Shown: one piece after another, positions 1,725-61,828 of the stretch
Layout of the letters: each line of letters starts with the position of its first letter
Numbering within the stretch: position 1 is the first letter of the stretch
Sequence record: OR083247.1
Direction: 5' to 3' (one strand)
Origin: Escherichia phage Bf23
Length of the DNA stretch: 64,000 nt
Made by a program: the position numbers and the translations under genes
Notes under the pieces: model-generated
The model's database searches: none
Told to the model about the DNA's origin: nothing
Seen by the model: the letters and a program-made list of their open reading frames with translations, nothing else

Positions 1725-1902
1725 ATTTATCTTGTTTTTCGAGATCTTCAAATTCTAAATCATTGAAGTTCCCTAGAGTACGGGAGTAGAACCCGTCTCC
1801 TGCGTCATAGCCTGATTTGCCACAATCACACATTTTAAATTCACGAAGATGTGTAAAAACATGTTCAGAACCACAACACTTAAATCTAACTAATCGTTTC
1901 AT
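1711..1902 (-). CDS. small Cys-rich protein, possible zinc ribbon (63 aa)
   Basis: CC..H..C.C spacing in the translated ORF; stop overlaps the tRNA-Cys 5' end. Confidence 0.4.
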   Translation of the reverse strand: MKRLVRFKCCGSEHVFTHLREFKMCDCGKSGYDAGDGFYSRTLGNFNDLEFEDLEKQDKSTVG

Positions 1903-12325: not shown

Positions 12326-12858
12326 TAATAAGTAACCAATTCCTGTACAAATCGCAGGCTGTTATCACTGTTTGCGCCAGTTGCGTAAACTAAACGAGTA
12401 GATTCATAGTTGTAATCTAGAATCGTATTATCCAGATGTACATCTGCCTCTAGTTTTTGATCACTAAAGATTGTGGATACAAAAGCACTTTCAATATGTC
12501 CATGAATATACATTTCTAGAAGAAGGTTAGCCCCACCTAGAACTACTGTCTGCTGATCTTTCAGAAATGTAGGTAAAGCATCCCCAATCTTAGAAATTGG
12601 AGTGTAAATATCATGTGTAATATCGTCTGGCAGTGGACGATCAGCACGAATAAATAGGTCAGAAGCTCCAATCATACGTTCTCTAACGGCGTATGGAAGA
12701 GCTAAATAAGTACCCGCACCAATGATGATGTTATCTGGATTCAACACGTCCAGTTGAGAATAGAAAGCATCTAGTTCTTCTTTGAAGGAACCCCATGGAA
12801 GTTTACCGCGGAGGCCGAACTCCCCATTCGGCCCAACTGCATACATTGCTGTAATCAT
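12325..12858 (-). CDS. frd: dihydrofolate reductase
   Basis: DHFR-like N-terminus MITAMYAVGPNGEFGLRGKLPW, about 177 aa; coupled to thyA and nrdB by overlaps. Confidence 0.8.
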   Translation of the reverse strand: MITAMYAVGPNGEFGLRGKLPWGSFKEELDAFYSQLDVLNPDNIIIGAGTYLALPYAVRERMIGASDLFIRADRPLPDDITHDIYTPISKIGDALPTFLKDQQTVVLGGANLLLEMYIHGHIESAFVSTIFSDQKLEADVHLDNTILDYNYESTRLVYATGANSDNSLRFVQELVTY

Positions 12859-14000
12859 AAGAAATCTCCAAATTCATTACCTAGATCTTTCAGAGTATCA
12901 GCAGAGGTCTCAGTTACCTGACCTACACGGTAAGCTGCACCAATCTGGATTTCTTGCGGAGCAGGCTGTAGAGAAGTAGTATCCAACCAGTTCATGATCC
13001 ATGGAATAGGGTTTTTGGTGATTACTGGTAAGTGACTAGGCCATTCTACACCGATGTGCATAAATGCATTACGCCCCACAAAGTACAGATATTCTTCTAG
13101 AAGTTCTGCATTCAAGCCAATCAGACTACGACCTTTGAAAATGAAATGACCCCATTCAATTTCAGTTTTCAGAGTTTTCAGGAGCTGTGCTGGTGCTTTA
13201 GCCACTGCTTCATCTACCAGATCTTTGTCAAACTGCTGGAACATAATCTGGATGATTGCTTTAGACATCTGAGTGTGCAGAGCTTCATCTTTAGCGATTA
13301 ATTGCAGATTTTTAGCAATACCTTGCAGAATATCGTTCTCTGCTAATGCAAAGGTACATGCAAAGGATGCGTAAAACTGCATTGCTTCCAGACCATAGAT
13401 CGCAAAGTAAGCGTCTAATAGCTTAGCCTGAGTTTCACGTTTAACCTCAGGGAACTCAGTTTCTGGATATGTATTGTCGCCACGATGATCGCGTACTGCG
13501 ATGAAATACTGACCTAACTGGTACAGTTCATCGAATAGTTCAACAGAATCAGCGATGCGTGCGAATGCTTCTTGGTTTTTGGTTACAGAATCAATAAATT
13601 CTGCTGGATCAGTCAGAACATTACGAATAATATTGCTATAAGCACGACTATGCAGGTCTTCAAAATAGCTCCACTGTTTGAGCATACCTTCCAGTTCTGG
13701 ACGACTTACAAGCGGCATAATAGCTGCTTCAGGGGCACGACTGATAAAGGAATCAGTTTGAGTCTGCCATGCTAAGTTCAGGAGTGTGATTTCCTGGATT
13801 TCACGTGGGAGATTGGGCCATTGTTTCTTATCTGCTTCCAGACTGATTTCAGTTTCAGTCCAAAATTGAGAGCGTTGCAGAAGTGCCAGACGTTCTAGTT
13901 CTGGATGTGCTACACGTACATAATCTGCGATACCTAGAGAATCGCCCAGGAAAAGATCAGCGTTAGTATGATCCCAATTCAGGTTTAGTAAAGTAGTCAT
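12855..14000 (-). CDS. nrdB: ribonucleotide reductase small subunit (class Ia)
   Basis: 381 aa, ferritin-like, adjacent to nrdA. Confidence 0.85.
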   Translation of the reverse strand: MTTLLNLNWDHTNADLFLGDSLGIADYVRVAHPELERLALLQRSQFWTETEISLEADKKQWPNLPREIQEITLLNLAWQTQTDSFISRAPEAAIMPLVSRPELEGMLKQWSYFEDLHSRAYSNIIRNVLTDPAEFIDSVTKNQEAFARIADSVELFDELYQLGQYFIAVRDHRGDNTYPETEFPEVKRETQAKLLDAYFAIYGLEAMQFYASFACTFALAENDILQGIAKNLQLIAKDEALHTQMSKAIIQIMFQQFDKDLVDEAVAKAPAQLLKTLKTEIEWGHFIFKGRSLIGLNAELLEEYLYFVGRNAFMHIGVEWPSHLPVITKNPIPWIMNWLDTTSLQPAPQEIQIGAAYRVGQVTETSADTLKDLGNEFGDFL

Positions 14001-14107: not shown

Positions 14108-16438
14108 TTATAACTGGCAACCACCCGAAGCACAACCCGCTGCTTCTTCACCAGCCCCACCACCATTTGCAGTGTTGAAGTTTGCGTAGTACCAAGTCTT
14201 CCAACCATATTTAACAGCAGTCATGAAATCACGAACTACTACCGGGCCAGGAATGATTTCATTCTCAAACTTGGTGTAGTCATAGTACATATTAGTACTG
14301 ATAGACTGGCTGAAGAATTTCTGCATAGTTGCTACCCATTTGATCCATTCAATACGATCTACATCATAAGCCAGTTTATAGCTCATTAACGTTTCCCAGT
14401 CGGTTGCACCTGGAGCAATTGCAATTACTTTATTCACTGCACTACCCTTGATAGATACAATCTTACGAGGTGGTTCAATAGAGTTAGTAACCCCTAACAG
14501 AACGGAAGAACTTTCTCCCGGCATCTGCGCAGTCAGAACAGAATTACGCATACCGTACTTCAGAATGTCTGCACGCAGAGATTCCCAATCCATTTCTAGA
14601 CCTACGGATACCAACTCATCAACAGTTTTCTTATACGTGTCGATTACCAGGATTCCTTTGGATGGTTTAGTACGATTAAACCATTCACATGCACCTTGCT
14701 CTTTGGCTAGACGTACAGAGGCTTTATGCAGGAAGTAGGACAATTTTTCAGCTTCACGATGAATCCAGTTACGAGCCTCAATACCTTCATAAGCCAGACC
14801 TTCTGCTGCCATTGCACCTGCTGCGTTCATAAGGCCAATACCAACGTTACGACGTTTCTTAGCTGTATATTCCATGGTCGGGAACGGATAGTCCTGAATT
14901 TCAATAATTGTATCAACGAATTTCAGGAGGATGTAGCAGGTTTTTTCCCACTCAGCCAGAGATTCCATGCGTCCAAGTACAACACCACCTAAGTTACACA
15001 GAGATACTTCACCAATATCCTCCGGCTTCATTTGATCAAGTTGTTCTTTTGTTTTATACAGTTCCGTGATATGATGGAACGGGCGTGTAGGTTGAGTAAT
15101 TTCAACACAAAGGTTTGTCATACGGATCGGATCAAGGAAGTTACCGTGACGATTAGATTCCCCGATGTGGTGAGCATACATACGTCCTGTTTCCATTCGG
15201 ATACGTAGCCAAGTATCTAGGATTTCTTTTGCAGAGACTTTAGGAGCTGCTGGAACTGTTTTTCCTTCGTGGTCGATCTTTGTAAGAGATGCCACACGTT
15301 TCTCCGCTGCCACATAGATTTCTTCAAATTTAGCCTCGTCATCACTATAAAACGCTTCATGAACTTCTGGAGCATAGAAGTATGACATTAGCGTAATATC
15401 TTCATTTTTCAGATAACGTTTTAACAAAAGATTGTTGAAGCTCAGAGAATAATCCATCTTATCGATTTTATTCTCATCTGTAGCACGTTGTTGCTTAACC
15501 TGCATCAATTGAATGATTTCAGGGTCAAAGTATGGATAAGACACTGTAGCAGAACCACCACGAGTTTGCTGAGTATTGGCCTTTACTGAGCGGTCAATGT
15601 GTCGATAATATGGCAGTTTTCCGGAATGCGGGAATGCCCCATTTCGCACCGGATCAGCAATTGATCGGCTTTCAAGATGATACCCGATTCCCGCTCTGGC
15701 TGCGACCATTTTGAAGACGATGTGCTCGGCGGTGTCGATTGAATCCAACGTGTCAGTGGAATCCACGAGGCAGCAACTAGCAAATCCACGGTCACTAGAG
15801 CGCAGACCAACCAGTGGCGGCGTAGGAACGTTGATTTTGTGGAGCGACATTGCGTTGTAGAGGTCGATTGCATCTAGAATTGTCCAGTTAGGTTGAGATA
15901 ACATCGCCATTGCCATACCCATGTAGGCAAACTGCGGAGTTTCATAAATTTCACCAGTGGCTATGTTGCGGCGGGAATACTTATCAAAGAACTGCTTCAG
16001 TCCACCACTAGTAAAAAGACGGTCACGATCATGGTCGATAACCTGATTCAGAGCTTCAAATTGCTCATCGGTAATCCATGCACTCATGTCTTCCCATGCA
16101 CCTACGCTAACCATGTGGTCATGGAAGAAGCGCAGAGAAGGTGGTTCGAAAGAATCATAAAGGCGTTTACGCATTTGCGCAAGACGTAATTCCTTTGCTG
16201 GCACATCGTATGCTGGGTTATCTTTGATAAGACTTTCAGCAGCCTTAATTAATGCGTCCATCAGAGTGTCGGAATCTACAACCCCTTTAGGCAGAGTTTT
16301 TTGAGCAGCCATAGTAATGGCTGACCAACTTACATCAACTGTTTTGCAACCATACTCTGCCCAACCATTGAGTTTTTCAGGAGCAAAGTCTTCTACAGTA
16401 CCGTCACGTTTAATTACTTTTTCAATGCGATGGCTCAT
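14108..16438 (-). CDS. nrdA: ribonucleotide reductase large subunit (class Ia)
   Basis: About 776 aa; start moved to MSHRIEKV (ATG at 16436-16438) because of an AAAGGAAAG RBS; the ORF-track start lies 35 codons upstream. Confidence 0.9.
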   Translation of the reverse strand: MSHRIEKVIKRDGTVEDFAPEKLNGWAEYGCKTVDVSWSAITMAAQKTLPKGVVDSDTLMDALIKAAESLIKDNPAYDVPAKELRLAQMRKRLYDSFEPPSLRFFHDHMVSVGAWEDMSAWITDEQFEALNQVIDHDRDRLFTSGGLKQFFDKYSRRNIATGEIYETPQFAYMGMAMAMLSQPNWTILDAIDLYNAMSLHKINVPTPPLVGLRSSDRGFASCCLVDSTDTLDSIDTAEHIVFKMVAARAGIGYHLESRSIADPVRNGAFPHSGKLPYYRHIDRSVKANTQQTRGGSATVSYPYFDPEIIQLMQVKQQRATDENKIDKMDYSLSFNNLLLKRYLKNEDITLMSYFYAPEVHEAFYSDDEAKFEEIYVAAEKRVASLTKIDHEGKTVPAAPKVSAKEILDTWLRIRMETGRMYAHHIGESNRHGNFLDPIRMTNLCVEITQPTRPFHHITELYKTKEQLDQMKPEDIGEVSLCNLGGVVLGRMESLAEWEKTCYILLKFVDTIIEIQDYPFPTMEYTAKKRRNVGIGLMNAAGAMAAEGLAYEGIEARNWIHREAEKLSYFLHKASVRLAKEQGACEWFNRTKPSKGILVIDTYKKTVDELVSVGLEMDWESLRADILKYGMRNSVLTAQMPGESSSVLLGVTNSIEPPRKIVSIKGSAVNKVIAIAPGATDWETLMSYKLAYDVDRIEWIKWVATMQKFFSQSISTNMYYDYTKFENEIIPGPVVVRDFMTAVKYGWKTWYYANFNTANGGGAGEEAAGCASGGCQL

Positions 16439-16559
16439 TTGGCTTTCCTTTTTATAGTTATCAGGATTTAAGGAATATTCTACTTTATTATCGGTCATTA
16501 GGCAAATAAAATTTTCTGATAGAAAAGGCCCGAGTATTTTCATACCCAGGCCCTGTATA

Positions 16560-16803: not shown

Positions 16804-17556
16804 TTACACCTTCCCCATGTCTTTAAAAATATCATAGAATGCTTTAGACTCAACAGAACGAACGTTATCAATCAATTCGATCATTGAGAAGGGGGCATTT
16901 TCGTATTTCTCATAGACTTCCATAAGTAGTGCTAGACCTGAGTCACCTTTAATGTCTTTCTGAGCTATATCTCCGCAGATAATTAAACGGCAGTCTTGCC
17001 CTACACGAGTTAGGAGACAAATCATTGCCTCAACGGAAATATTCTGAGCTTCATCGACAATTACATAGGAGTTGTTGAAAGTTCTGCCACGAGCATGTTC
17101 GACAGCCAAAAATTTAATTTTCTGACGTTCGACATATCCTTTATATGCATGATCGCCGATGGCCCATTTCATACCATCAGCTATTGGCTCTAACCAAGGC
17201 TCTAGCTTTTCCGCTAGATCACCAGGAAGCATACCAAGAGACTTACCTAGAGGTTCATTAGGACGTACGAGGATCACTTGCTCAATATCTGAGTGAATGT
17301 CTACGAGTTCCTGAGCTGCAAGAACAGACGGGATAAAGGTTTTACCAGTACCTGGCTCACCAATACCCACAGTCACTGTGTTGTTCTTGATCATATTGAT
17401 ATATGATTTTTGCTCGCGGTTTTTACCTACTAGGGATTTAGCAACTGGGTTAGCGTAATCATTAGAAAAATCAGCCTGAATTACGTTATTCTCATATTTG
17501 TTGCCACGCTTTCTTGAACCATTGCGGTTCTCTCTTTTTTGACGTGCTTTTCCCAT
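16804..17556 (-). CDS. phoH: PhoH-like ATPase
   Basis: Walker A GEPGTGKT and PhoH-like core; start at MGKARQ with an AGGAG RBS 8 nt upstream. Confidence 0.85.
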   Translation of the reverse strand: MGKARQKRENRNGSRKRGNKYENNVIQADFSNDYANPVAKSLVGKNREQKSYINMIKNNTVTVGIGEPGTGKTFIPSVLAAQELVDIHSDIEQVILVRPNEPLGKSLGMLPGDLAEKLEPWLEPIADGMKWAIGDHAYKGYVERQKIKFLAVEHARGRTFNNSYVIVDEAQNISVEAMICLLTRVGQDCRLIICGDIAQKDIKGDSGLALLMEVYEKYENAPFSMIELIDNVRSVESKAFYDIFKDMGKV

Positions 17557-17629
17557 AAATAACACTCCTATAGTGTACTTCGCTAACAGAGGATCAACAA
17601 AAAGATCTTGTTTATCAACTTACAAATAT

Positions 17630-17658
17630 ATTATACCAATATATACAGTAAAAAGCAA
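17630..17658 (-). promoter_or_regulatory. early promoter (-35 TTGCTT, 17-nt spacer, -10 TATAAT) upstream of phoH
   Basis: Consensus hexamers in the divergent phoH/nrdD intergenic region. Confidence 0.6.
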
Positions 17659-17809
17659 CTACAATTTTAAATAAGCCTATGATATTGCATTTAAATAAAA
17701 AATTTGCTTGCTTTTAACGTGAGATGTGTGATACTAGATAATCATTTTATATCGCGTGCACGAGTGCGTGATTATACAATTTTTAATAGAGATTGGCAAA
17801 TAAAATTTT

Positions 17810-17823
17810 TTGACTCAGATCAT
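17810..17823 (+). promoter_or_regulatory. FNR-box-like palindrome TTGAC-N4-ATCAT upstream of nrdD
   Basis: Matches TTGAT-N4-ATCAA at 8 of 10 positions. Confidence 0.3.
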
Positions 17824-17850
17824 GTTACAGAACTTTATAGTAAAATATTG

Positions 17851-17879
17851 TTGACATCCGCCCTCGAATGAGTTATAAT
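17851..17879 (+). promoter_or_regulatory. nrdD promoter (-35 TTGACA, 17-nt spacer, -10 TATAAT)
   Basis: Perfect consensus hexamers followed by RBS GAAGGAGAG and the ATG at 17909. Confidence 0.65.
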
Positions 17880-17908
17880 AGTAGTCTTAGTTAGAGAAGG
17901 AGAGTATA

Positions 17909-19783
17909 ATGAATCGTAATGAAGAACTAAAGTATAAAGAAATGCAGGCGTTAATTAGAAACTGCAAAGAGATTATCGAAGGATCAGCAGATGAAGAGCT
18001 GCTGTTTAATAATGCCAATAAACCCTCAGAACGTTTCCCTACACAAAGGGATATGCTTGCAGGGGAATTGAGTAAATATCTGATTCTAGAAGAAATGCCA
18101 ATTCAGATTCGAAATGCTCATATGATTGGAGATATTCATTTCCATGATGCTGATTACGCTGCTTTAGGTATGACTAACTGTTGTCTAGTAGCTCTGGAAG
18201 ATATGCTAAAAAATGGTATGAAAGTTGGTAATGCTGAAATTAGTACACCAAATTCTATTACTACTGCGGCTGCTATTACAGCTCAGATTATCACACAGGT
18301 TAGCTCCCATCAGTATGGCGGTACTTCTGTAGACCGATTAGATGAAGTATTGGCTCCTTATGTTCGTAAGTCTTATGATAAGAATCATGCGTTTGCAAAA
18401 CGTTGGACTAAGGATGAAGCCAAAGCATCAGTAATGGCTACTGAGATGACTGAAAAAGAAGTCTATGATGCTTGTCAGGGTCTAGAGTATGAAATCAATA
18501 CGATGTTCAATTCTAATGGTCAGAGTCCATTTATTACCTTTGGTTTTGGTCTAGGAACTTCTTGGGAAGCACGTCTAGTACAGAAAGCAATACTGAAAGT
18601 ACGTATGGATGGCCTAGGCATCAATAAACGTACAGCTATCTTTCCGAAACTGGTGTTTGTTCTGCGTGATGGCGTAAATATGAAGCCAGGAGATGTTAAT
18701 TATGACATCAAGAAGTTAGCTATGAAATGTACTGCTGAACGTATGTATCCCGACTATATCAGCTACGATAAGGTTGTGGAAGTTACTGGTGACTATAAAG
18801 TTTCTATGGGCTGCCGTTCATTCCTGGCTGCTACAGAGGATGGTGAAACTGCCGGTCGTAATAACTTAGGTGTTGTTTCTGTAAACTTGCCTAGAATTGC
18901 TATCGAAGCTGAAGGGAATATTGATCTATTCTTTGATTTGCTTGAGCTACGTGTGGATACAGCGTTAAAAGCATTGGAGTGGAGAGTTGATCGCTTAAAA
19001 TACATTCAAGCTAAAGCTGCGCCTATCCTCTATATGTCAGGAGCCTTTGGATTACGCTTAGGGCCTGATGAATATGTATTCGATCATTTCTATAACCGTG
19101 CTTCTGTATCTCTGGGGTATATTGGTTGCCATGAAATGCTACAGTTCATGTTTGGCAAAGATGTAGATACAATGTCTGAGACCTGCATCAAGTTTGTTCA
19201 GCGTGTGCTGCAGTACATGCGGGATAGGGTCGATCAGAAGAAGGAAGAGACTAAGTTAGGTTATAGCCTGTATGCTACACCATCAGAGTCCCTATGTGAT
19301 CGCTTTTGTCGTCTAGACCGTGAATATTTCCCGGAGCATGAAGATATTCTGTCCAAAGGATACTACACTAACTCTCACCACCTTGATGTGGAACGTAAAG
19401 TTGCTCCTAACGTGAAATTTGATTATGAATCTAACTTTACTCCGATTGCTTCTGGTGGATGTATCTCTTATGTAGAACTACCAGATATGAAACGATTCCC
19501 GGATGCACTGGAATGGGTTATTAATTATGCTGCTAGTAAGGTTCATTACTTCGGTATTAATACTCCAGTGGATTCCTGTGGTAAATGTGGATTCTTAGGT
19601 GAAACAGTAGCATCCGAAGATGGATTCAAGTGCCCTATCTGTGGTAATCATGACCCTGAAACTCTTGAAGTAACTCGTCGAGTTTGTGGGTATCTTGGAA
19701 ATCCAGGTGCTCGTCCGTTTAACCCAGGAAAACAACATGAGGTTATGGGCAGGGTGAAACATCAGGATATTCGAGCTAAATAA
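17909..19783 (+). CDS. nrdD: anaerobic ribonucleoside-triphosphate reductase (class III)
   Basis: C-terminal glycyl-radical motif RVCGYLG and zinc ribbon CGKCGF..CPICG. Confidence 0.9.
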   Translation: MNRNEELKYKEMQALIRNCKEIIEGSADEELLFNNANKPSERFPTQRDMLAGELSKYLILEEMPIQIRNAHMIGDIHFHDADYAALGMTNCCLVALEDMLKNGMKVGNAEISTPNSITTAAAITAQIITQVSSHQYGGTSVDRLDEVLAPYVRKSYDKNHAFAKRWTKDEAKASVMATEMTEKEVYDACQGLEYEINTMFNSNGQSPFITFGFGLGTSWEARLVQKAILKVRMDGLGINKRTAIFPKLVFVLRDGVNMKPGDVNYDIKKLAMKCTAERMYPDYISYDKVVEVTGDYKVSMGCRSFLAATEDGETAGRNNLGVVSVNLPRIAIEAEGNIDLFFDLLELRVDTALKALEWRVDRLKYIQAKAAPILYMSGAFGLRLGPDEYVFDHFYNRASVSLGYIGCHEMLQFMFGKDVDTMSETCIKFVQRVLQYMRDRVDQKKEETKLGYSLYATPSESLCDRFCRLDREYFPEHEDILSKGYYTNSHHLDVERKVAPNVKFDYESNFTPIASGGCISYVELPDMKRFPDALEWVINYAASKVHYFGINTPVDSCGKCGFLGETVASEDGFKCPICGNHDPETLEVTRRVCGYLGNPGARPFNPGKQHEVMGRVKHQDIRAK

Positions 19784-19792
19784 GCTAAACAG

Positions 19793-19825
19793 CCAGGTTG
19801 CTAGTCGACCTGGCTTTTATTTTAT
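19793..19825 (+). terminator. rho-independent terminator after nrdD
   Basis: Hairpin CCAGGT..ACCTGG followed by a T-rich tract. Confidence 0.7.
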
Positions 19826-60433: not shown

Positions 60434-61828
60434 TTAACCACCTGCTGTTACAGTAATAACTTTAGTGCCTTTAACACCAGAGCCATCTTTAGCCGTAGCT
60501 TCAACAGTTACCGCACCTGTTTTACTAGCATCTGCTGTTAACAGTCCTGTTGCATTGATAGTAGCTGCATCACCGGCAGTGATAGCCCAAGTAACTTCCT
60601 TATTCTTTGCGGAAGAAGGAGTAACTTCAACACTCATCTGAAGAGTAGCTGATCTATTTAATGTAGCAACATTTCCAGCAGACTTAACAGTAATTGCGGT
60701 TACAGCTTCAGAAGCACCGTCACCATTAACAATTAGATTATTAATAGTTGTTCTAGTATACTTACTAGAGAAGCCTAAGTAACCTTCGTCACCAGCATCC
60801 AGATCTGACGGAATAGCCTTAAATTCTACTGAAGTACCAAGCACATCATCAGTCTCAATAGTAGGAATATTAACGTGCGCCTGTTTAGCTACCAGAATGG
60901 CAGCAGGACGTTCCTCGTCATATTCGCCACCAAGTACTAGAGCAATTTCGAAGCGGTTAACTACCTTCAGAGTTTTGATAAGATCTTTATATAGTTCCAT
61001 AGAACCAAGAGATTTATCATTCAGGTAAGCAGTTAATGAACCAGTTAACTCAAAAGCACCAGTAAATGAGCCGATCGGAATAGTAACACGAGACATTACG
61101 TTAGGTGTTAGGTAAGTAATGTTGTTGTTAATAGTAAAAGTACCACCGGTAATCGGTATATCATAAGACTTATCGGTATCCATGTCCTTGATCTTCAAGA
61201 TCGTTAGTTTGTTCTTAATGTAAGAACCCTGGATAGTCATATAAGTTTCGTCATCAATACCTATTTGATCTGGATCAAATGGTTGCTCATCCAGTGGGAT
61301 TAGCTGGTTACCATTACCAGACCAAGTTACACGACCAATATCTTCAATATCAACGTTAACTTCTGCCTGATTAATCTGACAGGAATCGATATAACTCCAT
61401 GTTTTATCAGTCAGAATGTAAATATGTAACATTGCTAACTCATGATAGGAGTTATCTTTAAAGTTAACCATGAAGTTAGTAGCATTATTATGTGCTCCAG
61501 TAGTTCCTTCAAGATTAATAGCTCTACCACTAGAAAGTGCATGCCATAACATATAGTCAGGAACAATTTGTTTGCTAGTAGTTTTATCTTTATACGGCAG
61601 GATGTAAGTAGAGAAACTCCACTCAGCTGCGTTTAAAGAGTCGTTAAAACGTTTAGAACCACGAGTTGGACGCGGACCAGCTTCATTAACAGTAATATCT
61701 GTTGAGTTACTGTCCTGACCCCAAGAAATATCATCCTGAACTAGAATCTCTTGCGTGTTGGTCTTATTGTGACCAGTCTTAACCGTAGACACGAAGATTC
61801 GAGTATTACGTAATAGTTGTAAAGACAT
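60434..61828 (-). CDS. major tail tube protein (pb6-like, 464 aa) with C-terminal Ig-like domain
   Basis: Length matches pb6 as I recall it; C-terminal region resembles bacterial Ig-like decoration domains. Confidence 0.75.
   Translation of the reverse strand: MSLQLLRNTRIFVSTVKTGHNKTNTQEILVQDDISWGQDSNSTDITVNEAGPRPTRGSKRFNDSLNAAEWSFSTYILPYKDKTTSKQIVPDYMLWHALSSGRAINLEGTTGAHNNATNFMVNFKDNSYHELAMLHIYILTDKTWSYIDSCQINQAEVNVDIEDIGRVTWSGNGNQLIPLDEQPFDPDQIGIDDETYMTIQGSYIKNKLTILKIKDMDTDKSYDIPITGGTFTINNNITYLTPNVMSRVTIPIGSFTGAFELTGSLTAYLNDKSLGSMELYKDLIKTLKVVNRFEIALVLGGEYDEERPAAILVAKQAHVNIPTIETDDVLGTSVEFKAIPSDLDAGDEGYLGFSSKYTRTTINNLIVNGDGASEAVTAITVKSAGNVATLNRSATLQMSVEVTPSSAKNKEVTWAITAGDAATINATGLLTADASKTGAVTVEATAKDGSGVKGTKVITVTAGG

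What the first reader, a model, noticed from the sequence alone, without database searches (positions are those of the whole stretch)
17700..17908. Divergent phoH/nrdD control region with FNR-box-like palindrome and paired promoters
The nrdD gene has a perfect TTGACA-N17-TATAAT promoter and, 40 nt upstream, a TTGAC-N4-ATCAT palindrome resembling the FNR consensus. Bacterial nrdD is anaerobically induced through FNR. Inverted repeats rich in GCGTG lie further upstream. Phage control of an anaerobic reductase by a host oxygen sensor would be a tidy regulatory link.
Basis: inference. Interest (0 to 1): 0.4.

Follow-up and report, generated by a model that had tools for sequence, protein, structure and literature searches.

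The report
FNR box upstream of phage nrdD
In this T5-like phage, the gene for the oxygen-sensitive (anaerobic) ribonucleotide reductase has a perfect bacterial promoter with a probable docking site just upstream for FNR, the host's oxygen sensor; related phages keep that site or carry a site for a second host oxygen regulator, ArcA, at the same place, so the virus probably reads host oxygen status.

Summary
The window is a T5-like phage of Salmonella/E. coli (Demerecviridae). The 352-bp gap 17557-17908 separates leftward phoH-nrdA-nrdB (aerobic reductase) from rightward nrdD (anaerobic reductase).

- A 12/12 sigma-70 promoter, the only one in 64 kb.
- A divergent 11/12 promoter.
- TTGACTCAGATCAT at 17810-17823.

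By mismatch counting the FNR-like box is at chance level (70 matches vs 62 expected). Against the published E. coli FNR matrix, which I rebuilt exactly, it scores 12.62. That is above the authors' cut-off of 12.17. It is the only such site in non-coding DNA of the window (P about 0.014 for this region).

Comparison with relatives is the stronger evidence:
- Eight diverged haplotypes keep a box exactly 27 nt before the -35.
- TTGA..TCAA is 91% conserved against 43-55% for the linker, and six haplotypes score 14.8-16.8.
- Vibrio T5-like phages and an unrelated phage lineage carry perfect FNR boxes at nrdD.
- Proteus, Providencia and Pectobacterium relatives, and T5 itself, carry strong ArcA boxes in or next to the same slot.

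There are no NrdR boxes. Host oxygen-sensor control is therefore partly supported. Arguing against simple activation are the consensus core promoter and the unusual position of about -69.5. Nothing has been tested experimentally.

The parts
16804..17556 (-). phoH, first gene of the leftward unit. It is followed by DUF7430, nrdA (14108-16543) and nrdB (12855-14000), the aerobic class Ia reductase.
   Evidence: Pfam PhoH E 3.5e-61; Ribonuc_red_lgC E 1.4e-119; Ribonuc_red_sm E 3.8e-36.
17630..17658 (-). Proximal phoH promoter PL1: -35 TTGCTT (17658-17653), 17-nt spacer, -10 TATAAT (17635-17630).
   Evidence: Read from the sequence. The equivalent stretch is annotated 'putative early promoter T5P30' in T5 AY587007 and 'putative promoter' in S114.
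17704..17732 (+). Candidate distal rightward promoter PR2: TTGCTT, 17 nt, TGTGAT (TATGAT in some relatives). It mirrors PL1. Weak candidate, not annotated.
   Evidence: Inverted repeat I1 between the two promoter arms; alignment. Inference only.
17753..17770 (.). GC-rich block CGCGTGCACGAGTGCGTG. It contains the palindrome CGTGCACG (17755-17762) and two direct GCGTG copies. It lies at the predicted start region of PL2. Function unresolved.
   Evidence: Sequence. Hairpin not significant. Not reported by the repeat finder. An alternating purine-pyrimidine CG-rich tract is kept at this place in distant genera.
17771..17799 (-). Distal phoH-side promoter PL2: -35 TTGCCA (17799-17794), 17 nt, -10 TATAAT (17776-17771).
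   Evidence: 11/12 match. Hexamers kept in T5 as TTGCTA/TATAAT.
17810..17823 (.). FNR-type box TTGAC-TCAG-ATCAT. Its centre at 17816.5 is about -69.5/-70.5 from the predicted nrdD start and about -52.5 from the predicted PL2 start.
   Evidence: FNR PWM score 12.62 against a cut-off of 12.17. Same position in 8 haplotypes, six of which score 14.8-16.8.
17840..17850 (+). A/T-rich tract (GTAAAATATTG) directly upstream of the -35. It resembles an UP element and is a conserved island.
   Evidence: Column conservation. The UP-element function is inference.
17851..17879 (+). nrdD promoter PR1: TTGACA, 17 nt, TATAAT. Predicted start near 17886.
   Evidence: 12/12 and unique in the window. Hexamers are kept with different spacers in Pectobacterium and Proteus phages (TTGACA) and as TTGACT/TTGACC in My1 and Providencia phages. 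Annotated 'putative promoter (similar to T5st0mutant)' in S114.
17897..17902 (+). Ribosome-binding site AAGGAG of nrdD.
   Evidence: Sequence. The leader is almost invariant among relatives.
17909..19783 (+). nrdD, class III anaerobic ribonucleoside-triphosphate reductase (624 aa). It is followed by a terminator-like hairpin at 19791-19815.
   Evidence: Pfam NRDD E 5.5e-172 and Gly_radical E 7.4e-23; terminator scan.

Best explanation
The 14-bp box at 17810-17823 is a binding site for the host oxygen sensor FNR. It sits in a conserved regulatory slot 27 nt upstream of the -35 of the phage nrdD promoter.

**Proposed mechanism (inferred)**
- Under anaerobiosis the [4Fe-4S] FNR dimer, which survives T5-type host shut-off because it is a pre-made protein, binds the box.
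- From about -69.5/-70.5 it acts like a class I activator. It contacts the RNA polymerase alpha C-terminal domain positioned on the A/T-rich tract between the box and the -35.
- This raises nrdD transcription when the oxygen-sensitive enzyme can actually work.
- Because the box lies in the upstream A/T region of the divergent PL2 promoter, occupancy may also damp leftward transcription towards phoH-nrdA-nrdB.

**Shown:** the sequence features, the PWM scores, the conservation, the fixed spacing, and recurrence in other phages.

**Inferred:** FNR binding, the direction of the effect, and the transcription start site.

In this particular phage the box is the weaker allele (ATCAT). Any effect is probably a modest modulation of an already strong promoter.
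For: **The PWM is the published one.** An additive fit to the 186 PatSer-scored sites transcribed from Table S6 of Myers et al. 2013 (PMC3688515) leaves a maximum residual of 0.007.

**Scores in this window**
- The window box scores 12.62 against the authors' cut-off of 12.17.
- It is one of 3 sites above the cut-off in 64 kb. The other two (7480 and 61265) lie within open reading frames, the latter in the 464-aa ORF 60434-61828.
- P = 0.014 for a 352-nt region of this composition.

**Relatives**
- Scores at the same position: S114-type 15.62 (74 GenBank records), L016 14.83, mar003J3 15.49, NBEco002 16.78, KFSSM-type 14.83, NR01 15.49.
- E. coli's own nrdD site scores 15.68.
- Core TTGA..TCAA pairwise identity is 0.91, against 0.56 for the central six positions and 0.43-0.55 for the linker.
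- The 27-nt distance to the -35 is invariant, whereas the distance to PL2 varies from 10 to 18 nt.
- All variants keep T at position 1, which is FNR-type rather than CRP-type (G there costs 2.2 units in the matrix; the CRP preference is from my own knowledge).

**Recurrence elsewhere**
- Vibrio T5-like phages River4, Achelous and pVp-1 have perfect half-sites with three different N4 spacers at the nrdD promoter.
- Metagenomic phages L096/L099 have boxes scoring 16.07 and 16.54 in textbook class II geometry.
- Spacing control: 9 perfect N4 contexts against 0-1 for every other spacing. There is no such excess in the rest of the window.

**Host parallels**
- The host nrdDG operon is FNR-activated from sites at -64.5 and -33.5 (PMC10425943).
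- FNR directly represses host nrdAB (PMC3688515).
- ArcA boxes lie in or beside the same slot in other T5-like genera and in T5 itself, which suggests the slot is devoted to host oxygen regulators.
Against: - The core promoter is a perfect consensus with an A/T-rich upstream tract, so it should fire without an activator.
- The predicted centre of -69.5 is 2 bp off the class I optimum of -71.5 (own knowledge). It is also 5 bp (half a turn) from the host's -64.5 site.
- In E. coli 19 of 23 FNR-activated promoters have the site at -41.5 +/- 4, and only one is class I.
- The transcription start is predicted, not mapped.
- The window allele is weak. It is also the majority allele (192 records against 74).
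- T5-type phages have lost the left half-site (7.24), and DT571/2-type phages have no box.
- Only 63 of 187 predicted sites of this quality are occupied in E. coli.
- The haplotypes are related, so the conservation statistics overstate independence.
- In the Vibrio phages the box overlaps the -35 (centre about -28.5). Classically that would repress.
Confidence: 0.45

Rival explanations
1. The box is a decaying or neutral remnant in this phage. An FNR site was functional in an ancestor or in sister lineages. Here the ATCAT allele, next to a constitutive consensus promoter, has no measurable effect, and nrdD is simply an early gene transcribed regardless of oxygen.
For: - The window allele scores only 12.62, 3 units below the S114 allele, and is the commoner allele.
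- T5-type and DT571/2-type phages do without the box.
- The promoter is 12/12 consensus.
- Only about a third of predicted sites of this strength are bound in E. coli.
Against: - The score is still above the published threshold. Four ChIP-bound E. coli sites also end in T (carA, focA, ycgF, yfjH).
- The single change is at the least critical end position, and the rest of the core is intact.
- The exact 66-mer is identical in 192 records, which gives no sign of ongoing decay.
Confidence: 0.25
2. The main target is the leftward promoter PL2, not nrdD. The regulator (FNR here, ArcA in other genera) sits on the upstream A/T region of PL2. Under low oxygen it represses transcription towards phoH-nrdA-nrdB, mirroring host FNR repression of nrdAB.
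For: - The box spans about -46 to -59 of PL2.
- Host nrdAB is directly FNR-repressed (PMC3688515).
- ArcA, which fills the same slot in other genera, is said to bind mostly as a repressor (PMC3798270 abstract; partly own knowledge).
- In the ArcA-box phages the box lies 8-10 nt from the PL2-like -35.
Against: - The distance from box to PL2 varies (10, 17 or 18 nt), and PL2 is not evident in the NR01 type. The distance to the nrdD -35 is fixed at 27 nt.
- phoH and nrdA have further promoters of their own (T5P30 and T5P29), so repression of PL2 alone would have limited effect.
Confidence: 0.15
3. The conserved TTGA-N6-TCAA element binds something other than FNR. Candidates are CRP, another host CRP/FNR-family protein, or a phage-encoded dimeric DNA-binding protein.
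For: - The TGA-N6-TCA core is shared with CRP sites (own knowledge).
- Conservation alone does not name the protein.
- The box position is unusual for FNR.
Against: - All variants have T, not G, at position 1 and A or T at position 14. That is the FNR-specific feature, and G there costs 2.2 units.
- Variable positions are exactly the ones the FNR matrix tolerates (position 5 and N4).
- Independent phages with unrelated flanks also carry FNR-consensus boxes at nrdD.
- No CRP/FNR-like gene was noticed near the locus, but this was not searched systematically.
Confidence: 0.08
4. Pure coincidence: an A/T-rich, promoter-dense region throws up TTGA/TCAA words by chance.
For: - Crude 2-mismatch matches are at chance level (70 vs 62).
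- The total number of PWM hits in the window equals expectation (3 vs 3.0).
- A perfect FNR consensus occurs inside a coding region at 61265.
- Coding false positives were seen in PX29 and LAh_8.
Against: - P = 0.014 for this region alone, and 0.0006 for the S114 allele.
- The core is conserved and the spacing is fixed across 8 haplotypes.
- The excess near phage nrdD genes is specific to N4 spacing.
- Three independent phage lineages carry strong boxes upstream of nrdD, where about 0.02 would be expected.
Confidence: 0.07

Closest known systems
E. coli / Salmonella nrdDG promoter (FNR-activated, NrdR-repressed)
   Same: - The same enzyme class sits downstream.
- The FNR-consensus box upstream has comparable quality in relatives: phage 14.8-16.8 against 15.68 for E. 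coli.
- The essential host site is also at an unusual upstream position, -64.5 (PMC10425943; PMC3688515).
   Different: - The phage has one box, not two.
- The box is about 5 bp further upstream.
- The core promoter is a perfect consensus instead of a weak one.
- There are no NrdR boxes.
- No nrdG lies downstream.
- The flanking sequence is unrelated, so the site was not captured together with a host gene.
Class I CRP/FNR-dependent promoters (activator near -61.5 or -71.5 contacting the alpha C-terminal domain)
   Same: - A dimer site lies upstream of an intact -35 hexamer.
- An A/T-rich tract lies between the site and the hexamer.
- The distance to the core promoter is invariant.
   Different: - The predicted centre of -69.5/-70.5 is 1-2 bp off the optimum.
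- Natural class I FNR promoters are rare: 1 of 23 in PMC3688515.
- Dependence on the activator is doubtful with a 12/12 core.
Strong early promoters of bacteriophage T5 (own knowledge: classic high-efficiency sigma-70 promoters with an A/T-rich block upstream of the -35)
   Same: - Near-consensus hexamers, 17-nt spacing and an A/T-rich upstream block.
- The window holds 7 such promoters at 11/12 or better, against 0.8 expected.
- The promoter is annotated as putative in S114 by similarity to T5st0.
   Different: To my knowledge and in the searched literature, no host transcription-factor site has been described for these promoters.
Host-regulator control of phage auxiliary metabolic genes, such as PhoB boxes at cyanophage pstS/phoA (own knowledge)
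   Same: A virulent phage places a host global-regulator site in front of a metabolic gene. The gene's expression then follows the host's physiological state.
   Different: - The regulator (FNR or ArcA) and the signal (oxygen) are different.
- The evidence here is computational only.

Membership tests
FNR regulon promoter | Inverted repeat matching TTGAT-N4-ATCAA above a validated PWM threshold | tested here: met
   Score 12.62 against the cut-off of 12.17 from Myers et al. 2013, using a PWM rebuilt with residual <= 0.007. The margin is small in this phage. Six related haplotypes score 14.8-16.8.
FNR regulon promoter | Site centred at an activating position (-41.5 for class II; about -61.5 or -71.5 for class I) relative to a mapped start | tested here: inconclusive
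   The centre at 17816.5 gives -69.5/-70.5 from a start predicted 7-8 nt after the -10. The start is not mapped. The distance to the -35 is invariant in 8 haplotypes.
FNR regulon promoter | Core promoter that depends on the activator (poor -35 and/or -10) | tested here: not met
   TTGACA-N17-TATAAT, 12/12.
FNR regulon promoter | Site conserved among relatives beyond the neutral level | tested here: met
   Core 0.91 against linker 0.43-0.55; 6 of 8 haplotypes have an intact core. The site is lost in T5-type and DT571/2-type phages.
FNR regulon promoter | FNR binding, and fnr- and oxygen-dependent expression | not testable with these tools
   Needs gel-shift or footprint assays, reporter fusions, or infection transcriptomics.
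NrdR regulon (ribonucleotide reductase operons) | Two 16-bp NrdR boxes (acaCwAtATaTwGtgt) 15-16 bp apart, overlapping the promoter | tested here: not met
   No match with up to 3 mismatches anywhere in 17557-17908. The window total is 11 against 15.2 expected. Box architecture taken from PMC12176259.
ArcA regulon | 18-bp ArcA box: two direct repeats 11 bp apart | tested here: not met
   The best score in the window's control region is 10.1 bits, against a mean of 15.7 for E. coli boxes. Relatives score 16.4-23.8 in or beside the same slot.
T5-type early sigma-70 promoter | Near-consensus -35 and -10 with 17-nt spacing, an A/T-rich upstream block, located before an early gene | tested here: met
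   Annotated as a putative promoter in a relative. Hexamers are conserved, with diverged spacers, across genera.

The most novel reading that the evidence does not exclude
T5-like phages keep a dedicated regulatory slot centred near -69.5 between the divergent aerobic (phoH-nrdAB) and anaerobic (nrdD) reductase promoters. In different lineages evolution has refitted that slot with a site for whichever host oxygen regulator serves. E. coli/Salmonella phages carry an FNR box there. Vibrio phages carry an FNR box at the promoter itself. Proteus, Providencia and Pectobacterium phages carry an ArcA box in the slot, and T5 itself has one just upstream of it. A virulent phage that shuts off its host would then still use leftover host oxygen sensors to choose which dNTP-synthesis route to express.
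Probability: 0.35. Interest if true: 0.65.

Novelty: new member of a known kind. Interest (0 to 1): 0.5.

Why it matters
**Why it would matter if true.** T5 is a classic virulent phage. Its early promoters are textbook examples of strong, unregulated sigma-70 promoters, and it destroys host DNA early in infection. If host FNR (and ArcA in relatives) tunes its reductase genes, T5-like phages sense oxygen through the host. That matters for phage replication in the anaerobic gut, where Salmonella and E. coli phage therapy has to work. It would also add an enteric, oxygen-linked case to the few documented examples of host regulators controlling phage metabolic genes.

**Testability.** It can be tested directly with standard E. 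coli genetics. Natural strong (ATCAA), weak (ATCAT) and broken (T5) alleles already exist as controls.

**If false.** The region is simply an ordinary divergent early-promoter region.

Tried and rejected
- **Simple consensus counting.** Counting matches with up to 2 mismatches gave chance level. I replaced this with the published PWM.
- **NrdR boxes.** None found.
- **Known RNA families in 17300-18100.** Only a sub-threshold DnaX hit, E 0.088.
- **GCGTG inverted repeat as a hairpin.** Not significant.
- **TTGAC(T) of the box as the -35 of another promoter.** On either strand there is no acceptable -10 at 16-18 nt. TATAGT at 17836-17841 is 20 nt away (read).
- **Extra haplotypes from IMG/VR and metagenomes by DNA pattern.** Only known sequences were returned.
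- **High-scoring 'upstream' FNR boxes in Aeromonas phages PX29 and LAh_8.** These turned out to lie inside the NrdD ATP-cone coding sequence and were discarded. L109/L110 look bacterial and were set aside.
- **L103/L105.** A 17.42 box overlaps the nrdD stop codon. Its role is unclear and it was not used as support.
- **Literature.** No paper linking FNR to a phage nrdD or to T5 promoters and no T5 start-site map. Boston & Atlung 2003 is not held in the library.
- **CRP.** Compared only at consensus level, not with a matrix.

Full report
**What the window is.** The 3-kb stretch around the finding is 96-97% identical to many T5-like phages of Salmonella and E. coli (Demerecviridae, Markadamsvirinae). 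The intergenic part is 100% identical to Salmonella phage oldekolle. ORF 16804-17556 (-) is PhoH and 17909-19783 (+) is the class III anaerobic reductase NrdD. Leftward of phoH lie DUF7430, nrdA and nrdB, the aerobic class Ia reductase. The region therefore separates the aerobic and anaerobic reductase genes, which are transcribed in opposite directions.

**Check of the observation.**
- TTGACA(17851-56)-N17-TATAAT(17874-79) is 12/12. It is the only perfect match in 64 kb, and matches of 11/12 or better number 7 against 0.78 expected.
- A back-to-back minus-strand promoter is 11/12: TTGCCA 17799-94, N17, TATAAT 17776-71.
- A second phoH promoter nearer the gene corresponds to 'T5P30' of the T5 record and to a 'putative promoter' in S114: TTGCTT 17658-53, N17, TATAAT 17635-30.
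- The nrdD promoter itself is annotated as putative in S114.
- The FNR-like motif TTGAC-TCAG-ATCAT is at 17810-17823. It is not a true palindrome and matches the consensus at 8 of 10 positions.
- The 'GCGTG inverted repeats' reduce to an 8-bp palindrome and a direct repeat. Neither has statistical weight.

**Is the FNR-like box more than chance?**
- By mismatch counting, no: there are 70 matches with up to 2 mismatches, against 62 +/- 9 expected.
- A consensus count weights all positions equally, so I rebuilt the position weight matrix of Myers et al. 2013 (PMC3688515). I used the 186 PatSer-scored sites I transcribed from their Table S6 (the paper counts 187). An additive model reproduces every score within 0.007, and the matrix is symmetric.
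- On it the box scores 12.62. The authors' precision-recall threshold is 12.17, the maximum is 18.66, and E. coli's own nrdD site scores 15.68.
- The window has 3 sites above threshold, exactly the number expected (3.0). The other two lie within open reading frames.
- In random sequences with the composition of this 352-nt region, a site of 12.62 or better appears in 1.4% of trials.
- On its own, then, the box is suggestive but not compelling.

**Comparative evidence within E. coli/Salmonella T5-like phages.** I collected eight distinct haplotypes of the stretch between the two divergent promoters.
- All eight have a box at the same place, ending exactly 27 nt before the -35 hexamer of the promoter that drives nrdD. 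In three of them a T5orf172-type mobile ORF has been inserted just before nrdD.
- The scores are listed below.

| Haplotype | Box | Score |
|---|---|---|
| window | TTGACTCAGATCAT | 12.62 |
| S114 | TTGACTCAGATCAA | 15.62 |
| L016 | TTGACTAAAATCAA | 14.83 |
| mar003J3 | TTGAGCCAGATCAA | 15.49 |
| NBEco002 | TTGATTAAGATCAA | 16.78 |
| KFSSM type | TTGATTAAAGTCAA | 14.83 |
| NR01 | TTGATAAAAATCAA | 15.49 |
| T5 | TTAGCACAGATCAA | 7.24 |

- Mean pairwise identity is 0.91 for the eight core positions TTGA..TCAA, 0.56 for the six central positions, 0.43-0.55 for the 27-nt linker and 0.96 for the -35 hexamer.
- The positions that vary are the ones the FNR matrix tolerates.
- A sliding mask places the conservation maximum exactly in the FNR register.
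- The distance to the leftward promoter varies (10, 17 or 18 nt), whereas the distance to the nrdD promoter never does.
- In GenBank the exact window-type 66-mer occurs in 192 records and the strong S114-type 65-mer in 74.
- About 75 records match the region at only 80-90% identity, the band in which every sampled T5-type sequence falls.
- DT571/2-type phages have no box.

**Evidence from unrelated phages.** A profile of six NrdD proteins retrieved 80 phage loci.
- Perfect TTGAT-N4-ATCAA occurs in 9 distinct contexts. Every other spacing from N0 to N10 gives 0-1, and the everted arrangement gives 0-3.
- The rest of the 64-kb window shows no N4 excess.
- After removing coding false positives (the ATP-cone of PX29 and LAh_8), two further lineages retain strong non-coding boxes upstream of nrdD.
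  - Vibrio T5-like phages River4, Achelous and pVp-1 have perfect half-sites with three different spacers (scores 17.4-17.6). There the box overlaps the -35 of a TGCTATAAT promoter.
  - Metagenomic phages L096/L099 score 16.07 and 16.54. The geometry is class II: the box is centred 41.5 nt before an A, with TAACCT or TACCCT as the -10.
- From the window's background rate (0.28 sites of 14.8 or better per 64 kb), about 0.02 such sites are expected in 150 nt upstream of roughly 30 lineages. Three lineages have one, counting the Markadamsvirinae.

**An unexpected parallel.** The T5-like phages of Providencia, Proteus and Pectobacterium lack FNR boxes (hosts identified). At the same place, 25-26 nt before the -35, they carry TTGTTAAnnnnnTGT(T/A)A(C/T).
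- I built a matrix from 115 of the 128 E. coli ArcA boxes of Park et al. 2013 (PMC3798270). It reproduces their published scores within about 1 bit.
- On this matrix the phage elements score 17.7-23.8 bits. The mean for real boxes is 15.7 and the maximum is 21.5.
- T5 itself has an 18-bp insertion that destroys the left FNR half-site. That insertion carries a 16.4-bit ArcA box on the other strand.
- The whole window, both strands, has one hit of 15 bits or more.
- The window's own control region has no ArcA box; its best score is 10.1.
- So the slot, or in T5 the DNA beside it, holds a site for one or the other host oxygen-responsive regulator. This makes it harder to dismiss the FNR box as chance.

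**Mechanism.** The best-supported reading is that FNR binds the box and modulates the nrdD promoter from a class I-like position.
- The centre at 17816.5 is -69.5/-70.5 from the predicted start at 17886/7. A conserved A/T-rich tract lies between the box and the -35.
- The invariant spacing to the nrdD promoter favours this reading over repression of the leftward promoter. The two effects are not exclusive, because host FNR both activates nrdDG and represses nrdAB.
- Biologically it fits. NrdD is destroyed by oxygen and needs the activase NrdG. No ORF of 80 aa or more with a radical-SAM CxxxCxxC motif is present in this window. The phage enzyme may therefore depend on host NrdG, which is made only when FNR is active. 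That last step is inference.

**Against the mechanism.**
- A 12/12 promoter should not need an activator.
- Class I FNR promoters are rare (1 of 23).
- The position is 1-2 bp off the class I optimum and half a turn from the host's -64.5 site.
- The start site is not mapped.
- The window's allele is the weak one.
- The Vibrio arrangement looks repressive.
- No experiment exists, and searches found no paper on FNR and phage nrdD or T5 promoters.

**Verdict.**
- The promoter observation is right but ordinary for a T5-like phage.
- The FNR link is weak on this sequence alone. It gains real support from conservation, fixed spacing, spacing-specific enrichment near phage nrdD genes, and the FNR/ArcA alternation.
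- I rate a functional FNR site at about 0.45 for this phage, and higher for the S114-type relatives.
- It would be a new member of a known kind: an FNR-regulon promoter, and a host regulator controlling a phage metabolic gene.
- Interest is moderate at 0.5. The broader 'oxygen-regulator slot' reading would deserve more.

Noticed in passing
L076/L078 1112/1095; L080/L121 1110/1112; L075 1093; L077 1070; L002 about 1774-1791 (minus strand): T5-like phages of Providencia, Proteus and Pectobacterium carry strong ArcA boxes (17.7-23.8 bits) 25-26 nt before the -35 of the nrdD promoter. That is the same slot as the FNR-like box of the window. T5 itself has a 16.4-bit ArcA box in the 18-bp insertion that breaks its FNR half-site.
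   Followed up: partly
window 61265-61278: A perfect FNR consensus, TTGATCTGGATCAA (PWM 17.58; 0.003 expected per window), lies inside the 464-aa minus-strand ORF 60434-61828. It is probably a coding coincidence (repeated GAT codons). Conservation was not checked.
   Followed up: partly
window 17753-17770 and the equivalent place in L019-L022, L031, L032: A CG-rich tract of alternating purines and pyrimidines is kept across T5-like genera with little sequence identity. It is 10 nt in the window and 18-21 nt in distant genera, and is flanked by TATA-like A/T blocks. It lies between the -10 of the leftward promoter PL2 and a possible facing rightward promoter. It could be a Z-DNA-prone or supercoil-sensing element, or a GC-rich discriminator. 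Unresolved.
   Followed up: partly
window 17704-17732: A possible additional rightward promoter (TTGCTT-N17-TGTGAT; TATGAT in relatives) mirrors the proximal phoH promoter (inverted repeat 17648-17668 / 17698-17718). It would face PL2 head-on.
   Followed up: no
L092 528-1199; L015/L025 (insert between promoter and nrdD); L030/L061: Mobile-element ORFs have repeatedly landed in this control region. A T5orf172/DUF4379 ORF sits between the promoter and nrdD in NR01, NBEco002 and KFSSM-type phages. An HNH endonuclease gene sits on the other strand in SE19-type phages. The FNR-type box and its 27-nt spacing survive the first kind of insertion.
   Followed up: partly
window, all ORFs of at least 80 aa: No ORF with a CxxxCxxC radical-SAM motif was found, so no NrdG-like activase is visible in these 64 kb. 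The ORFs directly after nrdD have no Pfam match. The phage NrdD may rely on host NrdG.
   Followed up: partly
L003 1758-1921 (DT571/2): DT571/2-type phages carry a different nrdD allele (about 60% identity). Its consensus promoter is followed by an unusually long leader of about 130 nt, and there is no FNR or ArcA box.
   Followed up: no
L057 (Salmonella phage SE3), just left of the box: The A/T run before the box is expanded to 19 consecutive T. This could be a real length polymorphism or a homopolymer sequencing artefact.
   Followed up: no
L103 3006 and L105 3472: A near-perfect FNR box, TTGACCTAGATCAA (17.42), overlaps the nrdD stop codon in 75-77-kb phage genomes. It lies just before a terminator-like hairpin and the next gene. 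Its role is unknown.
   Followed up: no
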